Of a stretch of DNA of 64,000 nt, positions 30,421 through 62,546 are shown in pieces. Made by a program: the position numbers and the translations under genes. Source of the DNA: Nitrospirota bacterium (lineage in GTDB: Bacteria; Nitrospirota; UBA9217); NCBI GenBank assembly GCA_043731355.1, contig JAYTJE010000028.1:13261-77260 (forward strand). Direction: 5' to 3'. The notes under the pieces are model-generated. The model did not search any database. It saw only the letters and a program-made list of their open reading frames with translations, and was not told where the DNA came from. Position 1 is the first letter of the stretch, and each line of letters opens with the position of its first letter.

Positions 30421-30448
30421 GCTGAGGATACGAACATAGCAGGTTCAA

Positions 30449-32812: not shown

Positions 32813-32879
32813 CAAAACTCTGGCAGTTACCACGGAAAAGGCCACGGAGTATCACGGATACAAGTAAGAGATGAGTTCG

Positions 32880-33194: not shown

Positions 33195-33210
33195 GGGCAC
33201 GAAAATTGCT
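33195..33210 (+). promoter_or_regulatory. Sigma-54-like promoter gGGCACgaaaaTTGCT upstream of the beta-barrel gene
   Basis: GG-N10-GC spacing is correct and the -12 TTGC is intact; ~35 nt before the GTG start. Coordinates approximate. Confidence 0.45.
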
Positions 33211-33244
33211 TACATATTAATTGCAGAAATACTATGCCTGATGT

Positions 33245-45326: not shown

Positions 45327-46130
<804 letters not shown>

Positions 46131-46430: not shown

Positions 46431-46599
46431 GGCGCTTAACCTGAATATTTGGTTATTTATTAAAATAAATGCTCAATAGACAGAAAACCAACAGCGTTTT
46501 GAGCATAATCACTCATAAAATCAGGCGTTATCAGGTGTTTATATGTTGTATTTGTCGGCAACTTAAATAACTTATTGATATAAAAGGCTAATGAATTCA

Positions 46600-46615
46600 T
46601 GGTATGCGTATTGCA
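46600..46615 (+). promoter_or_regulatory. Sigma-54-like promoter TGGTATgcgtaTTGCA upstream of the second tetrahaem cytochrome operon
   Basis: GG-N10-GC spacing and the TTGCA -12 element, in a 270-nt AT-rich leader; paralogous position to the 29530 promoter. Coordinates approximate. Confidence 0.45.
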
Positions 46616-46702
46616 TTATACGCTGCGATAGATATGCTATAAGAAATAGTTGTTAGTTGGGTAATGCTGATTAACTAATTGAATTCATTGAGGATATGCT
46701 AA

Positions 46703-47470
46703 ATGCTAAAGAAGCGAGCGTGGATAGTTCTGATGACGGCCTGCATGATCCTGGGCGTTTATGGAATGGCTGTCGGCCTTCCTATTATGGGCAGCAAGCA
46801 TGACTTTTCGATTTCCGGTGGGGGTAATTTTGGCGGGGCCAATTTTCAGCTGGCGAATGGTGCTCCCGTTGAGGAAATATGTGTGTTCTGCCACACTCCG
46901 CATAATGCCGCTGCGCCGGGGGCGTTTCTCTGGAACCGGACCGGCACAGTCGCGACCGGTTACACCATGTATTCAAGCTCCACACTCACCTCGGCGATAA
47001 ATATGGGCACGGCTCCTACCGGCTTGACGCTCCTGTGTATGAGCTGTCACGACGGTATAACCTCCATAGCGGTTGGAACGCTTATCAATGCTCCCTATTA
47101 TGTAAATGGCCGCCAGCAGGTTGTGCTTTCCGACCCAGTCAACGGATACAGTAAAATAGGCGATCTTTATAATGGTACCATTATAGGCTGGGGCGCAAAT
47201 ATCGGCAACAAAGTTCCAGGTGTGGGCGACACCATAGCAGATCTTTCAAATGACCACCCGGTATCCTTTACGTGGGTTTCCGGCATCACCGGCATTAAAG
47301 AGCCAACCAGCACTTCGACAGGAGCCTGGGCAACAGGGCCGGAGCTTAAGCTCTTCGGCGGCAGGATGGAATGCTCTACCTGCCACAACGTGCATGATTC
47401 AGCGACCCAGCCTTTTTTAAGGATGTCTAATGTCAGCAGTAATATGTGCTTGGCATGTCACAATAAGTAA
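46703..47470 (+). CDS. Tetrahaem c-type cytochrome (paralog of 29764)
   Basis: Signal peptide; SKHD...CVFCHTPH...LWN N-terminal motif shared with 29764; four CXXCH. Confidence 0.8.
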   Translation: MLKKRAWIVLMTACMILGVYGMAVGLPIMGSKHDFSISGGGNFGGANFQLANGAPVEEICVFCHTPHNAAAPGAFLWNRTGTVATGYTMYSSSTLTSAINMGTAPTGLTLLCMSCHDGITSIAVGTLINAPYYVNGRQQVVLSDPVNGYSKIGDLYNGTIIGWGANIGNKVPGVGDTIADLSNDHPVSFTWVSGITGIKEPTSTSTGAWATGPELKLFGGRMECSTCHNVHDSATQPFLRMSNVSSNMCLACHNK

Positions 47471-47512
47471 TTAATGATATAATTGATTTTTATGGCTATC
47501 TCGGAGGTGAGT

Positions 47513-50251
47513 ATGAATAGGAAATTATACCTGATGGGCGCGGTTATTCTGGCAACACTGCTGCTTCTGTTGCCTGGCGCCGGCTATGCGGCCCCTTCGC
47601 TGATCGGCGCTGTTACGGATGCCGTGGATAGACCTGCCTCTGTTGCTCTGGACTCGCAAGGAAATATCTATGTCTCCGAGACGGCAAACGACCTGCTGAA
47701 GGTATACAGCCGAAAAGGCAAGCTGCTGAAACAGCTAAGTATTCAACGCCCGCTTGGTGTGGCGGTTGATGCCTCGGGTTCTCTCTATGTAGGTTCCGGA
47801 GGGAGGCGCGCTGTAGATGTGTACGCTCCCGATTATACCTATGTCCGCAGTCTTGGCGCAGGGAAGGGTGAAGTCTCCCGGCCGGGATCAATAGCAGTGG
47901 ATGGGGCTGGAAGGGTGTATGTGCTTGACGCTGCGACGAGTATGGTCCGCGTGTATGATGCTTCAACCGCGCTGATGCTCTTCGCGTTCGGCGGCAGCGG
48001 CGCCACAGACGGTCTTTTCAACAGACCGATGGCGCTCGCCGTAAGCGACACTCTTGGCGAGATATATGTTGCCGAGCTCCGGAAGACGGTAATCTCCAGC
48101 GGCGCTACCATAGATGGGGCAAAAATTCAGGTGTTCGACAAAGCGGGCGCCTTTAAGAGGTCGTTCGGTGACTATGGCCTCGAAGCGGGGAAAATCGGCA
48201 AACCGGTCGGTATGGCTTTAGACGGCTCCGGTAATATTTTTATCCTTGATCTCATTCAGGGCGCTGCGCTTTCTTTTGATGCAACGGCGGGGACCTTCAA
48301 CAATACCGCGCTGTATAAGACGGTAAGCTCGATGCCTCTCGGAATCGCGATTGGTAAAAACAAGATCGCTTATGTATCGCAGGCAAACGCCCGGATCATA
48401 GATATCTATGGACTTGACGGCTACACGACCATGGATGAGACGCCAACTGCCCTGACCTTCGAAAGTAAACAGCTGAGCGCAAACGCTCAGGCGCAAACTG
48501 TTACGATCACTAACGCTGGAAATGGTTCTTTAGGATGGACAGCAGCGGCTGATAGTGACTGGATAACCCTGGGTGCAATGAGCGGGATCGCGGGTCCGAG
48601 CAGTTCAAGCAGCCTTGTTGTTGGTACGAACAATGCGAACCTGAAAGCGGGCACGTATCAGGGTGTGGTAACGGTAACTGCTGATTTCGGCCAAATAGAT
48701 AAGATTCCCGTAACCCTTACGGTGACTCCCGCGGCGACGATTGGCTTCAGCAATGGATCGATTGCTGTTGTAGCCAAAACTGGCAAAACGCCGGCTGCGC
48801 AGCCGATAACGATCAATGTGCAGAATGCCGCCTCGCTTCCCTGGACGGCTTCTTCTGATGCTTCCTGGCTTGGCCTTTCCACGGCCAGCGGCACCGCGAC
48901 CACGGTATCGGCCCTCTTTATTAATATGACGAATATCGCGCCCGGAACGTATACCGGGCATATCACGCTTTCTGCGCCGGGCGCAATCGGAAACGGGGGC
49001 AAGCTGACCGTCAGTCTCACGGTGACGCAGGGTACCAGGATCAGCGTGACCTCGAATATCCCGGATGCCCGGTTTACGGTTGCTGGTGCTACCACCTCCT
49101 ATACGGGTTCCGGCACGACATGGAGCGTCGAGGGGGCCCCTCTGGGTGATTACACCATTACCTTTGATGCGGTAAACGGATATCGCAGACCTCTTTCTCA
49201 GACGATAAGCCTGAACGATGCGGAGGTTACCGCCACGGGAAACTATCGTTCTTTGGCTGATATCGCTGACCGCACGAATATCATTGCAGGCAGGGAAGAT
49301 CATGAGAATAACAGCTCGAAAATAAAAATTTACAAGAACGACGGGACCCCGGTTGCCGCTCAGGTGTCTTTTGGCGCGGATGGCAAATCCGGCGCGCTCG
49401 CGGCGTCGGCGGATGTTGATGGAGACGGCACGGCGGAGCTTATCGTGGTAAGCCGCGTTGGCGCGAACAAACCCTCCGTTGTGCGGGTGCTTAAATCCGA
49501 TGGGACCATGCTGGCTGAGTTTGCGCCCTATGCGATGCCCGGCGGTATTAACGTGGCAGCGGGCGATCTGAACGGCGATGGCAGAGCGGAGCTTGTGGTC
49601 GCCCCCGCGGGGAACGAGAGAAGCGCCCCGGTCAAAGTATATGCCTACCAGGCGGATGCAAAAGCACTGGTGGCGACAGGAATTGAACTTACCACGTTTG
49701 GATACGATCAGGCCGTTGTAGTCGCTGTTGCGGATACGACGGGCAATGCGGCGCCGAAGCTTATTGCCGCGTCGCAGCAGGTTATGAGCGTCTGGACGAT
49801 TGATTCAACAAAGGGCGCGGGAAACTGGACAGCCTCGCTGCTGAACGACTTCAAGTTCATTGCCAGGGGAGAGGCTTCACTCTCGGCCGGAGATGTTGAC
49901 GGCGACGGCACGGATGAAATCATTGTCGGTGAAGGCCCGGGCGTCGTCAAAGCCTCCTCGTATAATTCCGCATCAAGAGTTATGCTATTTAAAACCGACG
50001 GTACTTCGGTCGGTGGGTTTGCCCCCTTCGCAAACTTTCCTTACGGCGTGAGCGTGGCGGCGGCCGATCTGACCGGCGACGGCATTGCTGAAGTGGTTGT
50101 CGGGTCCGGCGAGGCTCAACGCTCGTCAAAAAACAATAAAACGTCAAAAGTCAGCATCTTTAACGCGGCGGGAAAACTGTTGAAAACCATAACGCCCTAC
50201 GCAAATTCGCACAGCGGTGTTAATGTCACGGTTGGAGAGATGGGATTATGA
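47513..50251 (+). CDS. Large secreted NHL-repeat / beta-propeller protein with C-terminal FG-GAP-like repeats
   Basis: Signal peptide; N-terminal NHL units (YVSE/YVGS/YVLD/YVAE); central Ig-like segment; C-terminal repeated D.DGDG..E..V motifs (VDGDGTAELIVV, LNGDGRAELVVA, VDGDGTDEIIVG, LTGDGIAEVVVG). GGAGGTG RBS. Confidence 0.75.
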   Translation: MNRKLYLMGAVILATLLLLLPGAGYAAPSLIGAVTDAVDRPASVALDSQGNIYVSETANDLLKVYSRKGKLLKQLSIQRPLGVAVDASGSLYVGSGGRRAVDVYAPDYTYVRSLGAGKGEVSRPGSIAVDGAGRVYVLDAATSMVRVYDASTALMLFAFGGSGATDGLFNRPMALAVSDTLGEIYVAELRKTVISSGATIDGAKIQVFDKAGAFKRSFGDYGLEAGKIGKPVGMALDGSGNIFILDLIQGAALSFDATAGTFNNTALYKTVSSMPLGIAIGKNKIAYVSQANARIIDIYGLDGYTTMDETPTALTFESKQLSANAQAQTVTITNAGNGSLGWTAAADSDWITLGAMSGIAGPSSSSSLVVGTNNANLKAGTYQGVVTVTADFGQIDKIPVTLTVTPAATIGFSNGSIAVVAKTGKTPAAQPITINVQNAASLPWTASSDASWLGLSTASGTATTVSALFINMTNIAPGTYTGHITLSAPGAIGNGGKLTVSLTVTQGTRISVTSNIPDARFTVAGATTSYTGSGTTWSVEGAPLGDYTITFDAVNGYRRPLSQTISLNDAEVTATGNYRSLADIADRTNIIAGREDHENNSSKIKIYKNDGTPVAAQVSFGADGKSGALAASADVDGDGTAELIVVSRVGANKPSVVRVLKSDGTMLAEFAPYAMPGGINVAAGDLNGDGRAELVVAPAGNERSAPVKVYAYQADAKALVATGIELTTFGYDQAVVVAVADTTGNAAPKLIAASQQVMSVWTIDSTKGAGNWTASLLNDFKFIARGEASLSAGDVDGDGTDEIIVGEGPGVVKASSYNSASRVMLFKTDGTSVGGFAPFANFPYGVSVAAADLTGDGIAEVVVGSGEAQRSSKNNKTSKVSIFNAAGKLLKTITPYANSHSGVNVTVGEMGL

Positions 50252-50280
50252 TGCGCATAATGCACGAAGGAGCGGCGACT

Positions 50281-52494
50281 ATGAAGAAATCGAATTACAT
50301 ACTGATTTCACTCTTACTACTCATTGGCATATTCTGTGCCGCGAGCGTGTCTTATGCGCTTGATGCGCCGCATACTCCTGTCGGCGTCGCCGGTTACGAC
50401 GTCAACTGTGCCTATTGTCACTACCCATTGACTGCCGCCACTCCAGCGTGGGCCACGGCTGCTCCTCCCGCGGGGAGCACTAAGCTGAACCAGCTTTGTC
50501 TGACTTGTCATAATCCCAGTAATGGCATACCGGTCGCGAAGTTTGCGGATGTACAAACCCATTCCAGCTACGTGACCAATCCCACGGATACTTTACGCAT
50601 CGGCGTCTATCTCATGGAATGCCGCACCTGTCACAACCCGCACCTTCAGAATCAGATGAGGGCGCTTCCCGCGGACGGCAATTTGGATTTCGGCACGACG
50701 ACTAATGTAACCGCTACCTTGCTGTCAGACAGCACCAAGAGCTGGGGTGTTGACCAGTTTAAGGATGCTTTGCTGATACCGAATACCGCTTACATCGCGT
50801 ATACATACCGGATTCTCAGCAATACCAAGGACACCCTGACCATTCTTGGCGCGATGAAAACCATGTCACCCTATACCGGCGTGGGCAAGCCCTATCGTAT
50901 CAAATACGGCAAGTTGATCAAGACGTCAATTCCAACTCCGAACAGCGGCGCAAAGCCCGTCACCTTCCTGACCAATTCCGGAGGTTTGACTTCTTTCGCA
51001 TCAACCACCGCCACGGTCAAAGGTGTTTGTCAGGTCTGCCATACCAAGACCAAATATTTCCTTGGCAGCGGAGCCGTGCTCGACGGCGGCCATCCAGCGA
51101 CCTATGACGCGAACTGCACCGTTTTCTGCCATCAGCACAAATATGGATTCAAGGCGGGCTGCAACGGTTGTCACGGTCAGAGCGGCGCGACCGGGGCCCC
51201 GCTTATCGGCACGGACCTTGTCAGCCCCGCGACCGGTCATACTGTCGGCGCGCATCAGAAGCATGCTGTAACGCTTACCATCGGCTGCGATGTGTGCCAT
51301 AGCGGAAACGGCATGCCGACTACGGATAATATAATAACGGTAGCCTTTAGCGGCATAGGTACCGGTGGGGCCTATCAAGGCAAAACATTGTCTGTTCCCT
51401 ATGTTTACAGCGCGGGTGTCCCGACCGGCGCAACCGAGAGCTGCTCCACCGTATATTGTCACAGCTCGGGCCAGAGTGCTGACGGCGCATCGGCAACTCC
51501 TGTCTATACAACACCGGACTGGGAAGCCCCGGCCAGCGGCGCTTGCGGCACCTGCCATGCGACAACGGCGCCGGATATTTCAACAGGCAGTCATACGACG
51601 CACCTGACGACCGATACCAACTGCGGTAACTGCCATACCGGCGCAAGCGCATCAGCATATGTTTCCGCGAGTCATGTTAACAAGTCCATCGACGTAGCGA
51701 ACGCTTATACAGCGGGTGGCGCTCCCGGCAATGGATACGGCACCTGCTCGACAGCTTCCTGCCATGCCAACGTATATGCCGTAGGCACGTCGCCGACCCC
51801 GACCTGGGGCACGACTGGCAACGGCTGCTCGGCCTGCCATACTGCTCCGAATACGATTGCGGCAAGCGGACCGCCGACCGGGAGTCACTCGAAACACTAC
51901 ACTAATAATAATGTGTCCGTGGTGTGTACGGCTTGCCACAACGCAGGCACAACGATGTCAACGAAGCCGACCACGAGTCATACCGATGGTGATATTGACA
52001 TCGTCAACGTCGGATATCCCGCTAACAAAACAAAAGGCAGCGCCTTCTCCACGTGTGCCACTGCTTGTCACGGAGCTACCACCCGAACGTGGGGGCAGAC
52101 ATCAACCGGATGCAACTACTGCCATCCGTACACGGCAAATGACTGGGCGACCAGCAATCCGACCGGTACGGCGCTCGCGGTGGAAGGGTTCGGCGCGCAT
52201 GCCAAACACATCGCCCATCTGGTGTCGCTTGGGGGCGTCCTCACTCCCGCGACAGACTCATTCGGCAGCGGTGCCTCATGGACCAACGTATGCGGCGTAT
52301 GTCACAACGGGGCCTCGCACACGCTGGATGGAACCGTTGGAAGCAGGCAGATATCGGTCCAAGCAGGCTACCAGTTCGGAGCGAGCGCTCCGCTGTACAC
52401 CGGAATTATCGGCAACAGTTCAAGCGTCAACCCGAAGAGCTGCTCGAACGTAAGCTGTCATTTCCAGACCACGCCGGTTTGGTCGACCTACTAA
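50281..52494 (+). CDS. Multihaem c-type cytochrome (~17 haem motifs) with signal anchor
   Basis: 12 CXXCH plus 5 atypical motifs (CTVFCH, CSTVYCH, CSTASCH, CATACH, CSNVSCH) in Geobacter-type paired CX4CH...CXXCH arrangement; AAGGAG RBS; overlaps the upstream gene. Confidence 0.85.
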   Translation: MKKSNYILISLLLLIGIFCAASVSYALDAPHTPVGVAGYDVNCAYCHYPLTAATPAWATAAPPAGSTKLNQLCLTCHNPSNGIPVAKFADVQTHSSYVTNPTDTLRIGVYLMECRTCHNPHLQNQMRALPADGNLDFGTTTNVTATLLSDSTKSWGVDQFKDALLIPNTAYIAYTYRILSNTKDTLTILGAMKTMSPYTGVGKPYRIKYGKLIKTSIPTPNSGAKPVTFLTNSGGLTSFASTTATVKGVCQVCHTKTKYFLGSGAVLDGGHPATYDANCTVFCHQHKYGFKAGCNGCHGQSGATGAPLIGTDLVSPATGHTVGAHQKHAVTLTIGCDVCHSGNGMPTTDNIITVAFSGIGTGGAYQGKTLSVPYVYSAGVPTGATESCSTVYCHSSGQSADGASATPVYTTPDWEAPASGACGTCHATTAPDISTGSHTTHLTTDTNCGNCHTGASASAYVSASHVNKSIDVANAYTAGGAPGNGYGTCSTASCHANVYAVGTSPTPTWGTTGNGCSACHTAPNTIAASGPPTGSHSKHYTNNNVSVVCTACHNAGTTMSTKPTTSHTDGDIDIVNVGYPANKTKGSAFSTCATACHGATTRTWGQTSTGCNYCHPYTANDWATSNPTGTALAVEGFGAHAKHIAHLVSLGGVLTPATDSFGSGASWTNVCGVCHNGASHTLDGTVGSRQISVQAGYQFGASAPLYTGIIGNSSSVNPKSCSNVSCHFQTTPVWSTY

Positions 52495-52505
52495 GGAGGA
52501 TGACA

Positions 52506-55500
52506 ATGACCAGGCTTGGTGATATAATGGCGAAGATTAAAAATTCAAATGGTGAGGTCAGTATGACAATTAAAACGATGAAGACTCCAAAATCCTCTGG
52601 ATGGCTGGCAAAGGTCAGTCGGGTACTGATCTTCACCATGGTGAGTGTTCTCTCATATCAGGTCTACTATGCTTATGCATCCATAGGCAGCGGGCAGATG
52701 GTTTATAACAACAACACAACTACCCCGCAGGCGAGAACTTATACTGTTTCATCAAATACATTTGCAGCAGGTATTGCAACTGCAGCCGGGGGAACGCCCT
52801 CATGGATTAAGGTTGTTGCAGGAACAGTAAGGTACGAATCTGTTGTTGCTTATGTTGACACTGGAAACACCCTTCGAATCCTCTACTGGAACGGCTCAGC
52901 ATGGTCAGCTGCTGCGCCCCATAACTGGACCGCGGCGCTTGGGGCCTCAGGCGCAAGCGGAAGGGGATTTGATATTGCTGTGGAGAAGCTCTCAGGTGAT
53001 ATCATTGTCGCATACACAACAAATGCTGCCGGCACGGAGATAAACTCCTACCGCTGGGATGGCAGCACATGGACAGGCCCAACAGCGTATGATTCTGCCA
53101 GACTTACCGGAACTGTCCGCTTCATCAAGATGGAATCAAAACCTAACTCAGATGATATCGGCCTCATAATGGCTGATACAAACAATGACCTGAGCGCAGC
53201 GATCTGGACCGGAACAACAAATACATTCGGCAATCCTCCTTCTGCTGCCTTAAGCACTTCAGCGTCATTTATCGTTGCCGGTGCAGTTGACGCAGAAAGT
53301 TTCGATCTTGCGTATGAGAGTCAGACCGGAGATCTTCTGGTCGTTTGGGCCAATGATGCTATTGCTACCGGAGTATATTACAATACATTTTCTGGCGGTG
53401 CATGGGGAACAACAGCACAGAATACCAATATTACGGAGGCGATCGAGCATCTTGACTGTGCAGCTGATCCATTGACCAATAATATCCTCTGTGCTTTTGT
53501 TGGAACGGCAACACAGGATATGCGGGTTGGCGTATGGTCCGGTACAGCATGGCAGGGAACTACCACAGACGTGGATACTACAGCAGCGCCCGGAACATTT
53601 GTTGCCGGCAGAAGATACCTTGCAACAGGATGGTTGAATGCCGGCTCCGCGAAACAGGGCATAGTCGTATATAACGACAATAATGCAAATGCAATAAACT
53701 GGGTTACAGTTGCTGCAGATGGCACCTTTGCCGTGCAGACGGATAACACAGCGGCAACACCGATGCCTGTAGGCGGAGTTGCATACCATGACATAATCAT
53801 GGATCCATATAACCCTGACATATTGCTCTATATATTTCAGGATACGACCAACTTTGATATCTTTGCAAAGAGACTTATAATGGATTCTGCCGGTGCATTT
53901 ACATGGAGTGACGCCAACGCAGGCGTTGTAATTGACGCTGCTCCTACTACTGCAGCAAGCGAGGCATTTCATTTTGCCTATGACCTGTATTTGCTCGCAA
54001 TAGACAACGGCACAAACCCGTCAGACCTCTCCGTAGGGGAGAGCTCGACAGATAACGCATTGGACAGTTTTACCATGCAGATGAAGTCAGGGAGCGGCAC
54101 TGTAACAAGCCTGGTGGTGACCGGCAGTACGAATTTTACATCTACGAACATCCCGACTAACGGCGTGAAGGTATGGCGCGACCTCGGAACACTCGGGGTC
54201 TATGACCCTGGAGTTGATGTTCAGATATCGTCAGCTTCCACTGCGATCGCGAGCAACGCAACAACGGTCACCATAAGCAGTGAGGCTGTTACGACAACAC
54301 TTCAGAACTATCTTGTTACCGTAGACATTACAGCCGCACCAACATATGGTCAGACGTTTACCGGAACTGTCACGACCGCAACGGCAAGCGGCATCCCCGT
54401 GTACAACGACACGTCTTCAGCGACCCTGACTGTAACTGAAAGGAACCTGACCGTCAGCAACGGCACAAACCCGGTCAATAAGAACGCTCAGCCAAGCTCG
54501 GTCAACAATGCGCTGGACGGTTTCAGCATGGTTATGCCGCTGGTGACAGGCCCAACAACCACAGTGACGAGCCTGACTGTTACAGGCAGCGCCAACTTTA
54601 CATCTACGAACATCCCGACCAACGGTGTGAAGGTATGGCGTGACACCGGAACAACTGTTGGCTGGTGGGATGCTGGCGATGTGCTGGTATCGAGCGCATC
54701 CACTGCGATCGCGAGCAACGCAACAACGGTCACCATAAACAGTGAGGCGGTCACAACAACTGCCCAGAACTATCTTGTGACAGTTGACATCACTGCCGGT
54801 GCAACTCTTGCTCAGACTTTCACAGGCACAGTGACTGCGGCAGCGGGAACCGGCCTCGGCACGCCGGTCTACGCGGATTCATCGTCAGCGACCCTGACGG
54901 TCAACAAACTGCTTTCGGCAAATGCTTCCTGCGGAAGCTGCCACGCCTATCCGCCCTATGACGGAACAACGCGGGATGGTGTGAGCGGCGCGTTCGTGGG
55001 CGATCATCAGAAGCATAACGTCGTGTGCTTGACCTGCCATGTGGCGCCTGCCACCGAGACGAGCGCAGACTTTAAACATCGCGACGGGAACATCACCATG
55101 CAGGCGGCCATTAAGGGCGGCTCGTACAGCAAAGCGAGCCCTTTTGCCCAAGTGAATAATCCGGTGACCGGCACGTGCTCGAATATATCCTGCCATGGCG
55201 GCAATAATCCAACACCCCAGTGGGGCGTCGGAACGGCAACCTGTATCAGCTGCCATAGCGGAATAGTTACCGCGGCGAACGCGTCAATTGCTTCCGGCGG
55301 CACGGTGACGCAGCGCGACGCGGTGAAGAATGAATTTGGTTTGGCGTGGGGGCATAAGAATTTAAATCGTTTAGCGGTTACCGATGCTGACTGCATTGTC
55401 TGTCACCTGGAAGGCAATTGGACGACGCAAAAAACATCAGCCGTGCATGCCGACGGATATATAAACTTGCGTGCCCCGGATGGAGCCGGTGAAGTAGCTA

Positions 55501-56480
55501 TTACGGATATGAGCGCGGCGACATATAGCTTCGTACAATTTTCAACTACCTATGCCGCCGGTTCAAGAACTCAGACCGGCAACACATCAAACAATGTAGA
55601 CAATGTCCTGACTCAGAAGTTCTGTCTCGCCTGCCATGACAGCAACGGGGCTACCAATACGACGGCGCGCTCTAACAATGGGGGCACAGGCACCGCGACA
55701 ATGCCTTTCGGCGGTGTGGCGTTAGGGCTTACTTACACCGCGGTCAATGACGCAATCGGCACTCAAGGTTTAATCGACGTTAAGTCTCAGGTTGCAACAT
55801 CGAATTCATCGTTCCACCCGGTTGTGGGACCGCTGAACAGGGATTTCCCGGCACAGTCAATGCTGAATGTGCCCTACAATAATAACGGCTCGAGACCTGG
55901 GACGTCGGGAACGAAAACATTCAGCGTAGTTTTGAACTGCTTTGACTGTCATAATCAGCCTTCCGGCAGCGAACTTACTAAAAGAACCGTCATATCGCAC
56001 GGCTCTACAGCCCCGAACCACTTACGCGGCAATATATATAGTTCAACTACTCCGATCTGTACCGTATGCCATTCGGCCACGTACGCAACCGGCACCAGCT
56101 CGCATCCGGCAGGATCGGCTTGGGGTGTTGCGACCTCTCGCGACCATTCGTCATACTTTCCCTTGTGCAATAACTGCCATTTGAGCACAACCTCAACGAC
56201 GGCGCCGACCCGACCGATCCCGGCGCAGGACATACACGGGTTTAACAGGCTGTCAAACGCTGGCAGCACGGATTTACTCTGGCCGGTCGGCGCCACTGAA
56301 TCCTGGAGGCCTTATGGGTTCTTGAGGAATACCGTGCAGTACACCAGTACCGTAGCCGGGCCGAGGCCGTACAGAGGCACGGAGGCCGCGCTTACGACGG
56401 GTACTTCCAACTGCGGTAATGATGCGGTATCTTGCGACGCCACCCTCATGACCGATTACGCGCCTGGCGGCTCGTATTAA
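52506..56480 (+). CDS. Mega-cytochrome (1324 aa): N-terminal TM anchor, beta-propeller-like W-G-x-x-W repeats, two tandem ~120-aa T/S-rich repeats, C-terminal ~9-haem domain
   Basis: AAGGAGG RBS 6 nt before ATG 52506; eight CXXCH plus CSNISCH in the last 450 aa; the ~120-aa unit TVTSLVVTGS.NFTSTNIPTNGVKVWRD...TLTV occurs twice. Confidence 0.8.
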   Translation: MTRLGDIMAKIKNSNGEVSMTIKTMKTPKSSGWLAKVSRVLIFTMVSVLSYQVYYAYASIGSGQMVYNNNTTTPQARTYTVSSNTFAAGIATAAGGTPSWIKVVAGTVRYESVVAYVDTGNTLRILYWNGSAWSAAAPHNWTAALGASGASGRGFDIAVEKLSGDIIVAYTTNAAGTEINSYRWDGSTWTGPTAYDSARLTGTVRFIKMESKPNSDDIGLIMADTNNDLSAAIWTGTTNTFGNPPSAALSTSASFIVAGAVDAESFDLAYESQTGDLLVVWANDAIATGVYYNTFSGGAWGTTAQNTNITEAIEHLDCAADPLTNNILCAFVGTATQDMRVGVWSGTAWQGTTTDVDTTAAPGTFVAGRRYLATGWLNAGSAKQGIVVYNDNNANAINWVTVAADGTFAVQTDNTAATPMPVGGVAYHDIIMDPYNPDILLYIFQDTTNFDIFAKRLIMDSAGAFTWSDANAGVVIDAAPTTAASEAFHFAYDLYLLAIDNGTNPSDLSVGESSTDNALDSFTMQMKSGSGTVTSLVVTGSTNFTSTNIPTNGVKVWRDLGTLGVYDPGVDVQISSASTAIASNATTVTISSEAVTTTLQNYLVTVDITAAPTYGQTFTGTVTTATASGIPVYNDTSSATLTVTERNLTVSNGTNPVNKNAQPSSVNNALDGFSMVMPLVTGPTTTVTSLTVTGSANFTSTNIPTNGVKVWRDTGTTVGWWDAGDVLVSSASTAIASNATTVTINSEAVTTTAQNYLVTVDITAGATLAQTFTGTVTAAAGTGLGTPVYADSSSATLTVNKLLSANASCGSCHAYPPYDGTTRDGVSGAFVGDHQKHNVVCLTCHVAPATETSADFKHRDGNITMQAAIKGGSYSKASPFAQVNNPVTGTCSNISCHGGNNPTPQWGVGTATCISCHSGIVTAANASIASGGTVTQRDAVKNEFGLAWGHKNLNRLAVTDADCIVCHLEGNWTTQKTSAVHADGYINLRAPDGAGEVAITDMSAATYSFVQFSTTYAAGSRTQTGNTSNNVDNVLTQKFCLACHDSNGATNTTARSNNGGTGTATMPFGGVALGLTYTAVNDAIGTQGLIDVKSQVATSNSSFHPVVGPLNRDFPAQSMLNVPYNNNGSRPGTSGTKTFSVVLNCFDCHNQPSGSELTKRTVISHGSTAPNHLRGNIYSSTTPICTVCHSATYATGTSSHPAGSAWGVATSRDHSSYFPLCNNCHLSTTSTTAPTRPIPAQDIHGFNRLSNAGSTDLLWPVGATESWRPYGFLRNTVQYTSTVAGPRPYRGTEAALTTGTSNCGNDAVSCDATLMTDYAPGGSY

Positions 56481-56508: not shown

Positions 56509-56538
56509 AGCCCCGCCCTTTCGGGCGGGGTTTTTGTT
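56509..56538 (+). terminator. Rho-independent terminator after the mega-cytochrome gene
   Basis: GCCCCGCCC-tttc-GGGCGGGG hairpin followed by TTTTTGTTT. Confidence 0.7.
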
Positions 56539-56561
56539 TGGCATTGTAAACAAGGAGTGAA

Positions 56562-58034
56562 ATGAGCATGAAAAGATTTTCTACCGTATTCGTTCTGGCA
56601 ATCCTCTGTCTTATGCCCCTTGTATTTTCCGCGGGGTGCAAAAAGAAGCAGGTAAAGACCCCGGCGATGCCCGCAGCCCCCGCCAGGCACGAGGTTGTAG
56701 CGAAGACAACGCTTCTGGCAACGATCCCGGAACTGGATAAACCAATCCAGTCAGAGGGGTTGCCGCCTCGTCACGCCGGCATCCCCTCCGGTTCGGGAGG
56801 CCCGCCGCCCGGCCATGCCAATATCCCTTCAGGACAAAGCCCTGAGCTCCTGGTTTATTTCAGTAAACTGGGTGGGGGAGCGGCCTATATTTCGGAAAGG
56901 GCCGGCAAAAAGCATGTGGTGTACAACGGCAAACCGGGCAAACCGTACGATGAGATCGACACTCTTACCGTGCTCTTAAGTGAGGACGGTCGGCGAATCG
57001 CCTATGGCGCCAGGACCGGGGCCAAGTGGATGATGGTGATAGACGGCGCGGAAGAAGGTCCGTACGACAGTGTTGGGTCCGCGGCCTTCAGCCCCGACGG
57101 CTTGCATGTCGCCTACCAGGCGCGGCAGGGCGGCAAATGGCACGTTGTATCCGGCACCAAGATGAGTGCGGGATGCGATACGTATCAGAATCAACCGATG
57201 TTCAGCGGCGATTCGACAAGAATATACACGATAGAAAAGACAAAAGTTGAAGGCATGCAGCGGCTGATTGTCAGCGACCTTGCATTCGAGAAGCAGCGTG
57301 TCAAGGTGCTGCGCGGGAAGTATTTATTTACGAACGAAAACAAAACCCGGATAGGCGCGATCGAGGAGGTCAATGGCAGGGAGCGGGTGATCGAATTGGA
57401 TTTCAACACGCTTGACGTCGTCAAACAGGGTGACTTCTATGATTCCATCAGATTTCCCACATTCGGGCCTGACGGCGTTACGGTTTCGTATGCCGCGGCG
57501 CAGCGCCAAAGACCCGGCGTTGTTTTTCGTTTTCTTATATTGGGCGACAGAAAGGAACGTCTTCCGGATGACGCTCCGATGGCGCTTCCCGTGGTCCGCC
57601 CGGACAAGAAAGGCGTCGGCATGATTATGTCGACTAAGACCAGTTACTACCTGCACCAGGCCTTTTATAACGACGGCACGAAGAAGCGGTATTATGATGA
57701 GGCCGGTGACCTGGCCTATAACAAGGACGGAAGTCTTCATGCGTTCGCGGCAAGAAAAGGCAATAAAGTCTTTATCGCGGTGAACGAAAAGGCCGGGCCC
57801 GCATTCGATCATGTGACTATGCCGGTATTCAGTCCCGACGGCAGGAAGGTCGTCTACCGGGCGAGAGAGAAAGAAAAACGGTTCCTTGTTGTTGCCGACG
57901 CCAACGGCAGGGTTTTGCGCAAGCATCCGGCCTATGAGAGGATTTTTGATCCCGTGTTTACCCCTGACGGGAAGTCGGTTGCCTATGGGGTCAAGGACGG
58001 GGACAAGCTTGTCTGGAAGGTGGAGAAGCTGTAG
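56562..58034 (+). CDS. Lipoprotein with PD40/TolB-like beta-propeller repeats
   Basis: Lipobox FSAGC; repeated FSPDG..VAY / SEDGRRIAY units. Confidence 0.6.
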   Translation: MSMKRFSTVFVLAILCLMPLVFSAGCKKKQVKTPAMPAAPARHEVVAKTTLLATIPELDKPIQSEGLPPRHAGIPSGSGGPPPGHANIPSGQSPELLVYFSKLGGGAAYISERAGKKHVVYNGKPGKPYDEIDTLTVLLSEDGRRIAYGARTGAKWMMVIDGAEEGPYDSVGSAAFSPDGLHVAYQARQGGKWHVVSGTKMSAGCDTYQNQPMFSGDSTRIYTIEKTKVEGMQRLIVSDLAFEKQRVKVLRGKYLFTNENKTRIGAIEEVNGRERVIELDFNTLDVVKQGDFYDSIRFPTFGPDGVTVSYAAAQRQRPGVVFRFLILGDRKERLPDDAPMALPVVRPDKKGVGMIMSTKTSYYLHQAFYNDGTKKRYYDEAGDLAYNKDGSLHAFAARKGNKVFIAVNEKAGPAFDHVTMPVFSPDGRKVVYRAREKEKRFLVVADANGRVLRKHPAYERIFDPVFTPDGKSVAYGVKDGDKLVWKVEKL

Positions 58035-58058: not shown

Positions 58059-58775
58059 ATGATCAGCGCCGTTATCCCCGCCTATAACGAGGAGGACACA
58101 CTGGAAGCCGCCGCGCGCGCGCTCGCCGGGGTCCTGTCGCGGCTTTCCCCGCTTGAGTGGGAAATCATTATCGTAAACGATGGAAGCCTGGACCGCTCCG
58201 CCGAGATAGCCGACAGGCTGGCAGATGATGCTCACATTCGCATCGTCCGGCACGAGCGAAACCGGGGCAAGGGCGCGGCCGTGCGGACCGGGGTGCTTCT
58301 TACCCGAGGGGATGTGGTGCTGATTTGCGACGCGGACATGTCCACCCCTCCGGACACGCTGGGGCCGTTTCTCGCGGAACTTTCCCGCGGGGCCGATCTC
58401 GTGACAGGCGACCGCAGGAGCCGTCATTCCCGCATCGAGCGTCCACAATCACTCCTTCGGCGGTTTATGGGCGGCGTATACGCGGCCCTTGCCCGATGGA
58501 TTACCGGAATATCCCTGCGTGATTTCAACTGCGGATTCAAGCTGATCCGAGGTGACGCGGCCCGCTCTCTGCTGCAAAGATGCCGGTCCGACGGATGGAC
58601 CTGGGATGTGGAAGTCATCGCCCTGGCCGCGCGCTCCGGGTTGACCGTACGAGCTCTTCCGGTAACGTGGCGACAGGGGGACCGCACGTCGGTCCGCCCC
58701 TTTTGCGGCGCGGTAAAAAGCCTTGTTGATTTAACAGCTCTCTGGTTTCGTCTGCGCGGGGCAAAAAACCTTTAA
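58059..58775 (+). CDS. GT2 glycosyltransferase, Dpm1-like polyprenyl-phosphate sugar synthase
   Basis: VIPAYNEEDTL...IIIVNDGSLD..., RNRGKGAAVRTG, CDADMS (DxD). Confidence 0.75.
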   Translation: MISAVIPAYNEEDTLEAAARALAGVLSRLSPLEWEIIIVNDGSLDRSAEIADRLADDAHIRIVRHERNRGKGAAVRTGVLLTRGDVVLICDADMSTPPDTLGPFLAELSRGADLVTGDRRSRHSRIERPQSLLRRFMGGVYAALARWITGISLRDFNCGFKLIRGDAARSLLQRCRSDGWTWDVEVIALAARSGLTVRALPVTWRQGDRTSVRPFCGAVKSLVDLTALWFRLRGAKNL

Positions 58776-60844
58776 TTGCCCCTCGGAATAAGCTCCCTGG
58801 CTATTTCGCTCTCCCTTGCCGCCTCGCTCAACCGGTTCTGCTTCAAATAAACATCGCTCAGCTGTTTATGGGCATCCGGCTCATCAGGACGCAGTGCTAT
58901 TGACGCACGGTATTCAACAATTGCCTGGTCCATAGAACCCAGGGAAGCATACGCATTGCCAAGGTTGTAATGGGCATCGGGTTCATCGGAATCCAGCGCA
59001 ATTACCGCGCGGTATTCGGCAATCGCCTGGTTCAATAAACCGATGGCGGCATACACATTCCCGAGATTGAAATGCGCCTCAAGGAAATCCGCTCGAAATG
59101 CCAGTGCGGCTTTAAATTCATTAACCGCTTCGGGGTAACGCTGCCGGAGCATGTATGCGCTGCCAAGATCGTTGCGCGCGGCGGCATCGGCGCGTTCCAG
59201 CTGTGAAGCGGAGGTATATTCGCCTGTCGCAACTCCATTAAGATCCCGCTGAGCATGGGCCATCCTCAAGCCATTAAATATTTTACTATTATCCGGTTCG
59301 ATCGCCAGCGCGGTTTTAAATTCGGTAATCGCATCGTCGTAGCTCCCCTGTCTCATAAACTCAGCGCCGATATTATAATAGGCATCGGCATAGCCCGCAT
59401 CGATTTGCAGAGCAGCCTTAAATTCGTTTATTGCTTCGTCGTAACGATGCTGCTCCGCATACGCAACTCCAAGATTATTATGGGCCAGGGGAAGTCTGCC
59501 GGGAAACTCGTCAATAACATAGGTCCAGAAAGTGACACTGTCTTTCCATATGCCGATCTGGCGTATTGTGGCATAGGAGAGGAATGCGATAATGGTTACC
59601 GCAATGACATAGCTTGACAGCCGCACGGCCCCGCCCCATTGGTTTACCGACGAGATCTTTTCATGGACTTTTACCGCCGATAAACCCGCAATAAGAAAAA
59701 AACCAAGACCCGGCAAATAGGTATACCGGTCCGCCATCGCTGCGTCACCGACCTTGACAATACCCAGAACGGGCGCCAGTGTTATGACATAATACGCCCA
59801 CACTGCCATCCATAATTTTTGTCTTCGCATTGCGACTATGCACGCCGCCGTGATCAGGACGACAAGGAGAAGCGCTGAAAGGTACTGGAATGAAAAAATA
59901 GATACCTCCTGGGGAATAGGGTACAGCGGGACCAAGTGTGCGGGCGCCACTGTTTTTATCAGGTAAAATGCCAAAGCTCCGGCAGCCAGCGTAAATCTTG
60001 ATGCCAAGGGCACTTGCTCTAAAGAGCTGACGGTGTTAACGGACGCTTGGGCGAAGAGGGTCAGGAGCGCTACACTAAAACTCAGGATTATAAAAGGCAT
60101 TTTTTCAAGGAATACCGTCCGGAAGGTTTCGAGAGACCGTATTCTTTTATAAAGATACCAGTCCAGGATCAACAGAACCAAGGGAAGTGAAACCGCCATT
60201 GGCTTGCTCATTAACGCAAGTATAAATAGAGCTATTGTCAGGAAATACTTCCGGGAAAATATGCGTGCTGATACGCGCGTGGAAGTATTTGCGCTCATGT
60301 CGCCCACATACCGCGTATATGCCGCGATCGTGAGCAGGTAAAAGAATGAACAAAGAAGGTCCTTTCTTTCAGAAACCCAGGCGACCGATTCGACACGGAG
60401 AGGGTGAATGCCGAACAACAATCCCGCGGTTACGCCGGCTAGTATCACGGCAGTATCATTCAATACCGGCTGCGACCCCGCGTTGTTTTTCCCGGTCTGC
60501 CGGTAAACCTCCAGGAGCCTCATGATAAGCAATGCGAGGATGAACGTGTTGAGCGCATGGATAAGGTTATTTGTGAGATGAGGCCCCAGGGGATTCAGAC
60601 CCCACAGGGCATAGTCGAAGGCATGCGAGAGCCAGGTGACGGGATGCCAATTACCCAGATGAAACTCCATAAAAGCCGATTTCAACAACCGCATATCGAA
60701 AGAACGGATAAAGGAATTATCGTAAAAATAACCACCGTCATCCCATAAGATAAAATCGTTTTGCAGCGTTGGCAAGAAAACGATAAAGGTTATAACCGCG
60801 CATGCAATTGCAAGGCTGATTTTTGTTTTTGAAGTAGTATTCAT
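58772..60844 (-). CDS. TMTC/DUF1736-like GT-C membrane protein with extended C-terminal TPR array, paralog 2
   Basis: NDFILWDDGGYFYDN...NWHPVTWLSHAFDYALWGLNPLGPHLTNNLIHA motif block; ~11 TM helices; >8 TPRs. Confidence 0.7.
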   Translation of the reverse strand: MNTTSKTKISLAIACAVITFIVFLPTLQNDFILWDDGGYFYDNSFIRSFDMRLLKSAFMEFHLGNWHPVTWLSHAFDYALWGLNPLGPHLTNNLIHALNTFILALLIMRLLEVYRQTGKNNAGSQPVLNDTAVILAGVTAGLLFGIHPLRVESVAWVSERKDLLCSFFYLLTIAAYTRYVGDMSANTSTRVSARIFSRKYFLTIALFILALMSKPMAVSLPLVLLILDWYLYKRIRSLETFRTVFLEKMPFIILSFSVALLTLFAQASVNTVSSLEQVPLASRFTLAAGALAFYLIKTVAPAHLVPLYPIPQEVSIFSFQYLSALLLVVLITAACIVAMRRQKLWMAVWAYYVITLAPVLGIVKVGDAAMADRYTYLPGLGFFLIAGLSAVKVHEKISSVNQWGGAVRLSSYVIAVTIIAFLSYATIRQIGIWKDSVTFWTYVIDEFPGRLPLAHNNLGVAYAEQHRYDEAINEFKAALQIDAGYADAYYNIGAEFMRQGSYDDAITEFKTALAIEPDNSKIFNGLRMAHAQRDLNGVATGEYTSASQLERADAAARNDLGSAYMLRQRYPEAVNEFKAALAFRADFLEAHFNLGNVYAAIGLLNQAIAEYRAVIALDSDEPDAHYNLGNAYASLGSMDQAIVEYRASIALRPDEPDAHKQLSDVYLKQNRLSEAARESEIARELIPRGN

Positions 60845-62544: not shown

Positions 62545-62546
62545 TT

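What the first reader, a model, noticed from the sequence alone, without database searches (positions are those of the whole stretch)
52506..56480. Mega-cytochrome with a novel domain order: TM anchor – W-G-x-x-W beta-propeller-like repeats – duplicated 120-aa T/S-rich module – C-terminal 9-haem domain
The N-terminal single TM helix implies inner-membrane or surface anchoring. About 500 aa of repeats follow (…RWDGSTWTGP…, …WNGSAWSAA…, …GGAWGTT…, …WSGTAWQGT…). Then come two nearly identical ~120-aa units rich in Thr/Ser/Asn; their internal N.T/N.S tripeptides are N-glycosylation-type sequons and their T/S runs are O-glycosylation candidates. The final ~450 aa carry 8 CXXCH plus one CX4CH motif. 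I do not recognise this combination.
Basis: seen in the sequence. Interest (0 to 1): 0.7.

Follow-up and report, generated by a model that had tools for sequence, protein, structure and literature searches.

The report
Secreted propeller–stalk–nine-haem modular cytochrome
This gene encodes a large exported protein made of an unnamed eight-bladed beta-propeller, two spacer domains and a nine-haem electron-transfer module. It most likely acts as a binding head wired to an electron conduit in a metal- or partner-respiring Nitrospirota bacterium, and the design recurs in metagenomes but has not been described.

Summary
The ORF is real: 52506–56480, 1324 aa. A second plausible start lies at 52563. 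All nine haem motifs (8 CXXCH and 1 CX4CH) are present and 98–100% conserved in 58–64 homologs.

The "TM anchor" is more likely a cleavable Sec signal peptide, with an 11-residue hydrophobic core and AYA|S.

The W-G-x-x-W region (aa 59–497) folds confidently (pLDDT 90.5) as a beta-propeller, probably eight-bladed. It has no Pfam or NCBIfam name. It belongs to a large family of at least 1039 clusters. That family also forms the head of ~600-aa type IV pilins of Patescibacteria and occurs in giant surface-type proteins.

The "duplicated 120-aa module" is two ~150-aa beta-sandwich units, 69% identical. Relatives carry 1–5 copies.

The C-terminal 524 aa is a CxxxxCH/CxxCH-type nonahaem domain (TIGR01904) with relatives in Geobacteraceae. 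It has nine conserved candidate distal histidines.

Sequons are not enriched.

The protein is a mosaic of shuffled modules. It is the last gene of a conserved cytochrome/beta-propeller operon.

Best reading: an exported binding-head–stalk–haem-wire protein for extracellular electron transfer. I rate it a new variant of a known kind, of moderate interest.

The parts
52500..52528 (+). Promoter-like site (ATGACA–17 nt–TATAAT with TG extension). It overlaps the first codons of the 52506 reading.
   Evidence: 11 of 12 matches; sequence. This is a consensus match only. It may explain why 'MTRLGDIMAKIKNSNGEVS' is conserved in paralogs as DNA rather than as protein.
52506..56480 (+). Target gene (1324 aa from ATG 52506). 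The alternative start, ATG 52563, gives 1305 aa.
   Evidence: AAGGAGG sits at 52493–52499, 6 nt before ATG 52506. GGTGAGGT sits at 52551–52558, 4 nt before ATG 52563. 'GEVSM' is conserved in paralogs whose upstream residues differ, which fits a Shine-Dalgarno sequence plus ATG. An identical protein, P0001, is on record from NCBI.
52563..52679 (+). Probable Sec signal peptide: M20–A58, K/R-rich n-region, h-core VLIFTMVSVLS, and AYA|S cleavage motif.
   Evidence: hydrophobic core of 11 aa; no TM-grade 19-aa window. In homologs the propeller begins directly after A-x-A. There is no lipobox and no pilin-type G|F…E5 motif. No dedicated predictor was available, so this is inferred.
52680..53996 (+). 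Beta-propeller domain (aa 59–497), probably eight-bladed, with [WF]-x-G-x-x-[WF] at the end of the third strand of most blades. It has no family name.
53994..54440 (+). Beta-sandwich spacer unit 1 (aa 497–645), T/S-rich.
54441..54905 (+). Beta-sandwich spacer unit 2 (aa 646–800).
54906..56477 (+). Nonahaem c-type cytochrome domain (aa 801–1324): 8 CXXCH and 1 CX4CH, CxxxxCH/CxxCH type.
   Evidence: TIGR01904 scores 33.8 bits against a cut-off of 27. PF22113 scores 39.9–44.3 against 30. PF14522 scores 33.5–40.7 against 24.8. There are 94 homologs, including Geobacter, Geomonas and Geotalea proteins named 'CxxxxCH/CxxCH domain c-type cytochrome'. All nine motifs are 98–100% conserved, and nine conserved non-motif His are present. 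There is no close solved relative.
56509..56542 (+). Intrinsic-terminator-like hairpin (10-bp stem, 8 G-C pairs) followed by a T-run, 29 nt after the stop codon.
46703..47470 (+). First gene of the same-strand cluster: 255-aa tetrahaem cytochrome (doubled CXXCH).
   Evidence: The same gene order is seen in locus L001.
47483..50251 (+). NHL / BACON / FG-GAP beta-propeller protein with a signal peptide. The true start is probably the M of MNRKLY, at 47513.
   Evidence: Conserved in L001.
50248..52494 (+). 748-aa cytochrome with ~17 haem motifs (12 CXXCH, 2 CX3CH, 3 CX4CH), TIGR01904 type. Its stop codon lies 12 nt upstream of the target.
   Evidence: The counterpart in L001 is 1055 aa.
56562..58034 (+). 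PD40-type beta-propeller protein with a lipoprotein-like signal (…SAGC). It is the conserved downstream neighbour of homologs.
   Evidence: It lies downstream of homologs in L001, L002, L007, L008 and L009. In the window a terminator-like hairpin separates it from the target.

Best explanation
The gene encodes an exported, modular, non-catalytic electron-transfer protein of a Thermodesulfovibrionales-like (Nitrospirota) bacterium.

A Sec signal peptide is removed. The mature protein has three parts:
1. An N-terminal beta-propeller, probably eight-bladed, that serves as a binding head. The same unnamed domain forms the head of Patescibacteria type IV pilin-like proteins and occurs in giant surface-type proteins.
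2. Two beta-sandwich domains that act as a stalk. Stalk length varies among relatives from 1 to 5 units.
3. A C-terminal CxxxxCH/CxxCH-type domain carrying nine covalently bound, probably all bis-His, haems that relay electrons.

The protein is the last product of a conserved operon: tetrahaem cytochrome, NHL/FG-GAP propeller protein, ~17-haem cytochrome, then this protein. I infer that it is the distal element of an extracellular electron-transfer chain. The propeller would hold the haem module against an external target (mineral surface, matrix polysaccharide or partner cell), and the haems would pass respiratory electrons to or from it.

Shown here: the ORF, the motifs and their conservation, the propeller fold, module homologies, the mosaic structure and the synteny.
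Inferred: signal-peptide cleavage, cell-surface location, bis-His ligation, and the binding and electron-transfer roles.
For: - The haem motifs are present and 98–100% conserved in 58–64 homologs, with nine conserved candidate distal His. This fits nine low-spin relay haems with no obviously open catalytic haem.
- TIGR01904, PF22113 and PF14522 all score above their cut-offs. Geobacteraceae relatives share 44–51% identity.
- The propeller family has at least 1039 clusters. It usually sits directly after a signal peptide in large proteins. It is also found as the C-terminal head of bona fide pilin-like proteins (PF07963, G|FSLVEI).
- The propeller is fused to at least two unrelated cytochrome types: the 9-haem CX4CH type and a 13-haem paired-CXXCH type.
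- The stalk unit is present in 1–5 copies in relatives.
- Domains are shuffled. The propeller and stalk are 75–85% identical to P0002/P0003, whose cytochrome domain is only 38–39% identical. The closest cytochrome domains (56–58%) sit in proteins with a 31–35% identical propeller or none.
- The leader has signal-peptide features.
- The operon order is conserved in L001, and a PD40 neighbour is conserved in five loci. A terminator-like hairpin follows the gene.
- A second cluster in the window encodes a tetrahaem cytochrome, an NHL propeller, a PPIase and a putative outer-membrane barrel.
- Gene clusters combining multihaem cytochromes, beta-propeller proteins and a PPIase are reported for extracellular electron transfer in Desulfovibrio ferrophilus, Ca. 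Desulfofervidus and Ca. Tenderia (PMC8322314; bioRxiv 10.1101/2022.05.06.490989).
- A pilin-borne propeller acts in host binding in Saccharibacteria TM7x (PMC11623550). This is an analogy only.
Against: - No localisation predictor or experiment was available. Nothing shows that the protein crosses the outer membrane, and the immediate operon has no porin or secretion gene.
- The ligand of the propeller is unknown, and no binding site was identified.
- The cytochrome and stalk model is low confidence (pLDDT 62) and matched no solved cytochrome fold.
- There is no hematite-binding-type motif near the haems; the only T-P-S is at aa 97.
- Similarity to MtrC and OmcZ is weak and generic.
- The organism is uncultured. 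Its identity rests only on names attached to homologs (P0006 Thermodesulfovibrionales, P0018 Nitrospirae).
Confidence: 0.55

Rival explanations
1. The protein is a periplasmic, not surface-exposed, electron-transfer scaffold. It stays in the periplasm. The propeller docks onto partner proteins, such as the NHL/FG-GAP or PD40 propeller proteins or an outer-membrane conduit. The stalk spans the periplasmic gap, and the nine haems bridge inner-membrane donors to the outer membrane.
For: - The protein has a Sec-type leader without a lipobox or a recognisable secretion signal.
- There is no outer-membrane barrel in the immediate operon.
- Beta-propellers often mediate protein–protein contacts, as the NHL discussion notes.
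- The conserved neighbour is a PD40 lipoprotein with a weak TolB/TmcD-like match.
Against: - The same propeller family sits on type IV pilin-like proteins and in 2000–8000-aa multi-copy proteins typical of cell surfaces.
- The T/S-rich sandwich stalk with variable copy number, and the rapid module shuffling, are typical of surface-exposed proteins.
- In Desulfuromonadia, predicted extracellular multihaem cytochromes are the least conserved and most diverse class (PMC11492766).
Confidence: 0.25
2. The protein is a redox enzyme. The propeller forms a substrate or cofactor pocket, as in cytochrome cd1 nitrite reductase, NirN, hydrazine synthase or quinohaemoprotein amine dehydrogenase. The nine haems feed or drain electrons for catalysis.
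For: - Fusions of c-haem domains with 8-bladed propellers are an established enzyme design (established knowledge: NirS).
- MccSep shows that multihaem cytochromes with beta-sandwich add-ons can be catalytic (PMC13510729).
Against: - Identity to those enzymes is only 6–9%, and WD40 and lectin propellers score equally well.
- Most members of the propeller family have no redox domain at all, including pilins and haem-free giant proteins.
- The domain order is the reverse of NirS, and ~300 aa of stalk separate the propeller from the haems.
- Nine conserved distal His for nine haems leave no obvious open coordination site.
Confidence: 0.1
3. One reading: the N-terminal hydrophobic segment is an uncleaved signal anchor. 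It tethers the protein to the cytoplasmic membrane, and the protein is heavily glycosylated on the T/S/N-rich modules.
For: - If translation starts at 52506, the n-region is unusually long (38 aa), which can disfavour cleavage.
- Small polyprenyl-phosphate-sugar-synthase-like GT2 genes, each next to a protein with 8 TM-like segments plus TPR repeats, lie just downstream (58059–63275).
- A PMT/PMT_2 glycosyltransferase lies near the homolog in L009.
Against: - The hydrophobic core is only 11 residues, and an AYA|S motif follows directly.
- In relatives the propeller starts right after A-x-A.
- Sequon frequency equals chance: 22 against 21.4 ± 4.0 overall, and 8 against 7.1 ± 2.1 in the duplicated units. 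Only 3 D/E-x-N-x-S/T motifs are present.
- T/S richness is common in beta-sandwich surface domains.
Confidence: 0.12
4. The protein is a subunit of a polymerising cytochrome 'nanowire' similar to OmcS, OmcE or OmcZ.
For: - A profile of the cytochrome domain gives a weak match to OmcZ (8d9m, E 7e-5; 7lq5, E 0.009).
- TIGR01904-type Geobacter cytochromes (GSU2884, OmcH, OmcG) are predicted to be wire-like (PMC11492766).
Against: - NrfA, reaction-centre cytochromes and MtrC match equally weakly, and the similarity is confined to the haem-motif region.
- An 800-aa non-haem N-terminal part is unlike known filament subunits.
- There is no evidence for an inter-subunit ligand.
Confidence: 0.05

Closest known systems
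CxxxxCH/CxxCH domain c-type cytochromes (TIGR01904 / PF09698) of Geobacteraceae, e.g. the Geotalea toluenoxydans, Geomonas paludis and Geobacter argillaceus proteins
   Same: The C-terminal 524 aa are homologous at 44–51% identity over 56–83% of the domain. They share the CX4CH…CXXCH signature, the motif order and conserved distal histidines. The HMM score is above the cut-off.
   Different: Those proteins are 650–900 aa and lack the propeller. None has been characterised biochemically or structurally. Here the domain is only the C-terminal 40% of the protein.
Metagenomic homologs P0002 and P0003 (unnamed; 1342 and 1297 aa)
   Same: They have the same architecture from end to end: leader, propeller (74–75% identical), two stalk units (78–85%), and 8 CXXCH plus 1 CX4CH.
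   Different: Their cytochrome domain is only 38–39% identical, so a different allele or paralog of the haem module is attached. They carry no annotation.
Patescibacteria type IV pilin-like proteins of ~600 aa (e.g. P0034, P0039, P0045; source names 'PilV' and 'PulG')
   Same: Their C-terminal ~435 aa are homologous to the propeller, at 30–37% identity over 97–99% of the domain.
   Different: They have a class III (prepilin) signal and a pilin helix (PF07963) and no haem motifs. The target has a Sec-type leader and a cytochrome.
Outer-surface decahaem cytochromes MtrC/OmcA of Shewanella
   Same: A ~100-aa stretch (aa 1131–1230) scores above the PF22113 cut-off for the haem domains II/IV. A role as a distal electron-transfer protein is plausible.
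   Different: The target has nine haems, not ten, and no lipoprotein signal. There is no hit to TIGR03507 on this protein and only weak profile matches to MtrC structures (E 1e-4 to 2e-3). The non-haem domains are entirely different.
Multihaem-cytochrome / beta-propeller / PPIase gene clusters for extracellular electron transfer (D. ferrophilus DFE_0448–0465, Ca. Tenderia Uet cluster)
   Same: Large secreted multihaem cytochromes are co-encoded with NHL-type and other beta-propeller proteins. The window also holds a cluster with a tetrahaem cytochrome, an NHL propeller, a PPIase and a putative barrel.
   Different: In those systems the propellers are separate polypeptides of named repeat families. 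Here an unnamed propeller is fused to the cytochrome itself. Orthology of the components was not tested.
Cytochrome cd1 nitrite reductase (NirS) and NirN/NirF
   Different: Identity is 6–9% and the domain order is reversed. A 300-aa stalk lies between the parts. The propeller family is mostly found without any redox partner.

Membership tests
CxxxxCH/CxxCH domain c-type cytochrome (TIGR01904 / PF09698) | HMM score above the curated cut-off | tested here: met
   TIGR01904 scores 33.8 bits against a cut-off of 27, at aa 877–927. PF09698 on its own is below its cut-off: 15.8 against 21.7.
CxxxxCH/CxxCH domain c-type cytochrome (TIGR01904 / PF09698) | CX4CH motif followed closely by CXXCH, conserved in relatives | tested here: met
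   C891-x4-C896-H897, then C913-x2-C916-H917. Both are 100% conserved in 63–64 aligned homologs.
CxxxxCH/CxxCH domain c-type cytochrome (TIGR01904 / PF09698) | Covalent haem attachment at all nine motifs | not testable with these tools
   This needs haem staining or mass spectrometry. Only motif conservation is shown.
MtrC/OmcA family outer-surface decahaem cytochromes | Ten haems in two pentahaem domains flanked by beta-barrel domains; family HMM TIGR03507 | tested here: not met
   The target has nine motifs. TIGR03507 is not among its hits. Only a 100-aa PF22113 segment matches.
MtrC/OmcA family outer-surface decahaem cytochromes | Lipoprotein signal peptide (lipobox Cys) | tested here: not met
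   There is no Cys in the first 317 residues.
Type IV pilin / pseudopilin | Class III signal: short basic leader ending in G, then a hydrophobic helix with E at +5 (PF07963) | tested here: not met
   The leader reads …KSSG-WLAKVSRVLIF…, with K and R after the G and no E5. There is no PF07963 hit. The Patescibacteria relatives of the propeller do have this signal.
Beta-propeller fold (8 blades) | Radially arranged four-stranded sheets with closure by N- and C-terminal strands | tested here: met
Named propeller repeat families (WD40, NHL, PQQ, FG-GAP, PD40, Kelch, BNR, RCC1) | Significant match to the family's repeat HMM | tested here: not met
   The domain gives no Pfam hit at E ≤ 10 and no NCBIfam hit at E ≤ 0.1.
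Cytochrome cd1 nitrite reductase-like haem–propeller enzymes | Sequence homology and a cofactor (haem d1) pocket in the propeller | tested here: inconclusive
Cytochrome nanowire subunits (OmcS/OmcE/OmcZ) | Sequence or structural homology to a filament-forming cytochrome, and polymerisation | tested here: inconclusive
   The single sequence gives no PDB hit. The profile gives a weak OmcZ hit at E 7e-5, no better than NrfA. Polymerisation is not testable here.
N-glycoprotein (sequon-rich) | Enrichment of N-x-S/T, or of bacterial D/E-x-N-x-S/T, above composition | tested here: not met
   There are 22 sequons against 21.4 ± 4.0 in shuffles, and 3 extended sequons against 1.4 ± 1.2. Actual glycosylation is not testable here.

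The most novel reading that the evidence does not exclude
The protein is an adhesin–cytochrome fusion. A lectin-like propeller of the kind that Patescibacteria mount on pilin subunits recognises a specific external target, such as a partner cell's surface glycan, matrix polysaccharide or a mineral face. It thereby plugs a nine-haem wire directly onto that target.

The head, the stalk length and the haem module are exchanged by recombination among paralogs. They share a conserved promoter/leader cassette, which retunes target specificity and reach.

This would amount to a programmable 'electrical grappling hook' for direct interspecies or mineral electron transfer in Nitrospirota.
Probability: 0.2. 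Interest if true: 0.75.

Novelty: new variant of a known kind. Interest (0 to 1): 0.5.

Why it matters
Extracellular electron transfer is understood mainly from Geobacter and Shewanella. How Nitrospirota (Thermodesulfovibrionia), abundant in subsurface and ferruginous settings, connect to external electron acceptors or partners is largely unknown.

This locus offers a concrete, testable design in which target recognition (propeller), reach (variable stalk) and conduction (nonahaem module) are separate, exchangeable modules.

It also exposes a large, unnamed beta-propeller family of at least 1000 clusters. That family links multihaem cytochromes, Patescibacteria pilin heads and giant surface-type proteins, and it merits a family definition.

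If the propeller's ligand were found, it could explain how electron-transfer proteins are positioned on their substrates. It could also supply parts for engineered bioelectronic interfaces.

Tried and rejected
- **PDB sequence search with the whole protein:** only a chance ribosomal L18 hit at E 0.28.
- **Profile searches of the PDB:** the cytochrome part gave only weak, generic multihaem matches. The profile that included the propeller (A1, which contained full-length sequences) matched nothing in its propeller part; its only matches fell at profile positions ≥700, the cytochrome portion.
- **afdb50 fold library:** not available.
- **The look-up of encoding contigs for the identical protein P0001:** not on record.
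- **The listing of cluster members:** gave no names.
- **Genome-contig scan:** did not recover the window's own genome, only Geobacteraceae and Ignavibacteriales cytochrome relatives. The organism is therefore inferred from homolog names only.
- **Rfam:** no family in the whole window at gathering threshold. No relevant match ahead of the operon start at 46300–46750 at E ≤ 1 (one chance IRES_mnt hit, E 0.37). The target's own 5' leader (52440–52700) was covered only by the whole-window scan.
- **Hematite-binding motif scan:** negative.
- **Considered and rejected:**
  - Pilin identity of the target: it has no class III signal.
  - MtrC/OmcA membership.
  - MccSep/ExtKL relationship: different haem count, and only an insignificant NCBIfam hit at E 0.014.
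  - Sequon enrichment.

Full report
**The observation**

The window holds one long + strand ORF ending at 56480. ATG 52506 lies 6 nt after a perfect AAGGAGG and 12 nt after the stop of the upstream gene. This gives a 1324-aa product. An identical protein (P0001) is on record from an NCBI contig of 78.7 kb.

The last ~520 aa contain 8 CXXCH motifs (aa 809, 841, 913, 963, 1040, 1145, 1185, 1221) and one CX4CH (aa 891).

A second start is plausible. A promoter-like site (ATGACA–17–TATAAT with TG, 11 of 12 matches) covers 52500–52528. GGTGAGGT at 52551–52558 precedes ATG 52563. In many paralogs the translated string 'GEVSM' is invariant while the residues upstream of it differ. This is what a conserved Shine-Dalgarno sequence plus start codon would look like. 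I cannot decide between the two starts. Nothing else in the analysis depends on it.

**The leader**

The hydrophobic core is 11 residues (VLIFTMVSVLS). No 19-residue window in the whole protein reaches a Kyte-Doolittle mean of 1.6. AYA|S follows at aa 56–59. In relatives the next domain begins directly after an A-x-A motif.

This is the anatomy of a cleavable Sec signal peptide, not of a TM anchor. There is no lipobox Cys and no prepilin-type G|F…E5 signal. No dedicated predictor was available, so cleavage is an inference.

**The repeat region is a beta-propeller of an unnamed family**

Residues 59–497 gave no Pfam or NCBIfam hit, even at E ≤ 10.

An AlphaFold2 model built on a 49-sequence alignment is confident (pLDDT 90.5, pTM 0.92) and all-beta, with 30 strands. 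These group into seven complete four-stranded blades plus one blade closed by N- and C-terminal strands.

- 8-bladed propellers: Notchless/Rsa4, cytochrome cd1 nitrite reductase, NirF, and the designed Bagel8 and Ika8.
- The 7-bladed tryptophan-rich PLL lectin.

So the fold is clear, but it shows no specific kinship to any solved family.

An exhaustive phmmer search found 1039 cluster representatives at E ≤ 1e-3 and 190 at E ≤ 1e-30. Three patterns stand out:
- The domain typically lies directly behind a signal peptide in proteins of 600–3000 aa.
- It occurs many times in two giants of 6719 and 7926 aa.
- It forms the C-terminal head of ~600-aa Patescibacteria proteins with bona fide prepilin N-termini (G|FSLVEI…, PF07963; source names PilV/PulG).

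Of 140 newly retrieved representatives, 22 carry at least 3 CXXCH and 12 have pilin-like N-termini. The propeller is attached to at least two unrelated cytochrome modules: the 9-haem CX4CH type here and a 13-haem paired-CXXCH type.

**The duplicated module**

The two units span aa 497–645 and 646–800. They are ~150 aa each, 69% identical in protein and 74% in DNA.

The same unit occurs once, twice or five times in tandem in related cytochromes, always between the N-terminal domain and the haem domain. This fits a spacer or stalk of adjustable length.

Sequons are not enriched: 22 N-x-S/T against 21.4 ± 4.0 in shuffles, and 8 against 7.1 ± 2.1 within the units. The sequence itself therefore gives no evidence for glycosylation.

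**The cytochrome domain**

Residues 801–1324 score above the cut-offs of three models:
- TIGR01904, CxxxxCH/CxxCH domain: 33.8 against 27.
- PF22113: up to 44.3 against 30.
- PF14522: up to 40.7 against 24.8.

Ninety-four homologs were found. They include proteins of Geobacter argillaceus, Geomonas paludis and Geotalea toluenoxydans that NCBI names 'CxxxxCH/CxxCH domain c-type cytochrome'.

In a 64-sequence alignment all nine haem motifs are 98–100% conserved. Nine further histidines are also conserved. H950, H981, H1104 and H1165 are invariant; H858, H1200 and H1244 are at ≥97%; H837 is at 86% and H834 at 66%. Nine candidate distal ligands for nine haems argue for low-spin relay haems rather than an open catalytic haem. 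This is an inference.

No solved structure is a close relative. The single sequence finds nothing. A profile finds only weak, motif-driven matches: NrfA at 1e-6, OmcZ at 7e-5, MtrC at 1e-4, GSU1996 at 3e-4.

**Mosaic structure**

Identity differs sharply from domain to domain. P0002 and P0003 share the propeller at 74–75% and the stalk units at 78–85%, but their cytochrome domain is only 38–39% identical. The closest cytochrome domains (56–58%; P0010–P0013) belong to proteins whose propeller is 31–35% identical or absent. P0004–P0006 and P0009 share the propeller at 72–76% but have a different middle region.

Many paralogs with unrelated mature parts share the leader and 5' region at 55–82% identity. 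The modules have evidently been recombined.

**Genomic context**

The gene is the last of four closely spaced same-strand genes:
- A tetrahaem cytochrome (46703–47470).
- A secreted NHL/BACON/FG-GAP propeller protein (47483–50251).
- A ~17-haem TIGR01904-type cytochrome (50248–52494).
- The target.

A strong terminator-like hairpin follows at 56509–56532. The same order is found around the homolog P0006, which carries the name Thermodesulfovibrionales, in locus L001. A PD40-type propeller protein, with a lipoprotein-like signal in the window, follows the homologs in five loci. System II cytochrome-maturation genes (ResB, CcsA) often lie nearby.

Seventeen kilobases upstream, the window has a second cluster. 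It encodes a tetrahaem cytochrome, a six-bladed NHL propeller, a SurA-like PPIase and a 646-aa protein with a signal peptide and a C-terminal Phe that looks like an outer-membrane barrel.

Clusters combining multihaem cytochromes, beta-propeller proteins and a PPIase are reported in organisms that exchange electrons with solids or partners (PMC8322314; 10.1101/2022.05.06.490989).

**Interpretation**

The best-supported reading is an exported, non-catalytic head–stalk–wire protein that forms the distal part of an extracellular electron-transfer chain (confidence about 0.55).

The surface location is an inference, drawn from three things:
- The company the propeller keeps (pilin heads, giant surface-type proteins).
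- The variable T/S-rich stalk and the module shuffling.
- The survey finding that predicted extracellular cytochromes are the most diverse class in Desulfuromonadia (PMC11492766).

The rivals, in order of weight:
- A periplasmic scaffold (0.25).
- A redox enzyme of the cd1 type (0.10).
- A nanowire subunit (0.05).

**Novelty and score**

No named family covers the protein, and I found no paper describing this architecture or this propeller family. However, every element belongs to a known kind: a multihaem cytochrome of a named though uncharacterised family, a generic propeller, a sandwich spacer and a cytochrome/propeller operon. The architecture also recurs in public metagenomes.

I rate it a new variant of a known kind, with interest 0.5. 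The most useful products are three:
- The definition of a large unnamed propeller family linking cytochromes and Patescibacteria pilins.
- Clear evidence of modular recombination.
- A testable head–stalk–wire model.

Noticed in passing
window 29764–35185 (+): A second cytochrome cluster. It encodes a 218-aa tetrahaem cytochrome (doubled CXXCH), a 360-aa six-bladed NHL propeller, a SurA-like PPIase and a 646-aa protein with no family hit. That last protein has a signal peptide, an N-rich low-complexity insert and a C-terminal …SRPF, so it is possibly an outer-membrane barrel. The set resembles the cytochrome/PPIase/barrel/NHL sets described for Ca. Tenderia and D. ferrophilus.
   Followed up: partly
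window 52440–52565, and N-termini of P0004, P0010, P0012, P0014, P0016, P0018, P0019, P0024, P0028, P0031, P0032: A leader/5' cassette ('…IKNSNGEVSM..MKT.KTPKSSGWLAKVSRVLIFTM…') is shared at 55–82% identity by paralogous cytochromes with quite different mature domains. The part upstream of the second ATG coincides with a promoter-like site and a Shine-Dalgarno sequence. It may therefore be conserved DNA (a regulatory or recombination cassette) rather than protein.
   Followed up: partly
window 58059–63275: Two pairs of genes, each made of a small GT2 and a polytopic membrane protein. The GT2s (58059–58775 on +, 62547–63275 on −) resemble polyprenyl-phosphate sugar synthases (AglJ/PpgS/ArnC-like). 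The membrane proteins (58772–60844 and 60841–62544, both on −) have ~8 TM-like segments and C-terminal TPR repeats, and their membrane parts match no Pfam family. This could be an extracytoplasmic glycosylation system. A PMT/PMT_2 gene lies near the homolog in L009 (8471–9697).
   Followed up: partly
window 45336–46110: Three arrays of 7-nt tandem repeats (CAGTAGA/CAGTAGG, and the complementary TCTCCTG/TCTACTG). They run for 83–170 bp each and flank a 23S_rRNA_IVP (four-helix-bundle, bAvd-like) gene at 45442–45804. The arrays on the two sides are reverse complements of each other. They sit just upstream of the cytochrome operon.
   Followed up: no
window 47483–47515 and 52548–52565: The ORF finder's TTG start for the NHL/FG-GAP gene is probably wrong. 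The translated 'EVSM' again marks a GAGGT Shine-Dalgarno sequence followed by ATG (MNRKLY…) at 47513. The same signature precedes the target's second ATG.
   Followed up: no
P0064 (6719 aa) and P0065 (7926 aa): Two giant haem-free proteins match the propeller query in 13 and 17 separate stretches. The domain can therefore be arrayed many times in one polypeptide. Their organism and function are unknown.
   Followed up: no
window 56562–58034 (+): The PD40 propeller protein with a lipoprotein-like signal gives a partial match to NCBIfam TmcD (E 1e-25, far below the cut-off). TmcD is a subunit of the Tmc transmembrane electron-transfer complex of sulfate reducers. The gene is conserved next to the target's homologs in five loci.
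   Followed up: partly
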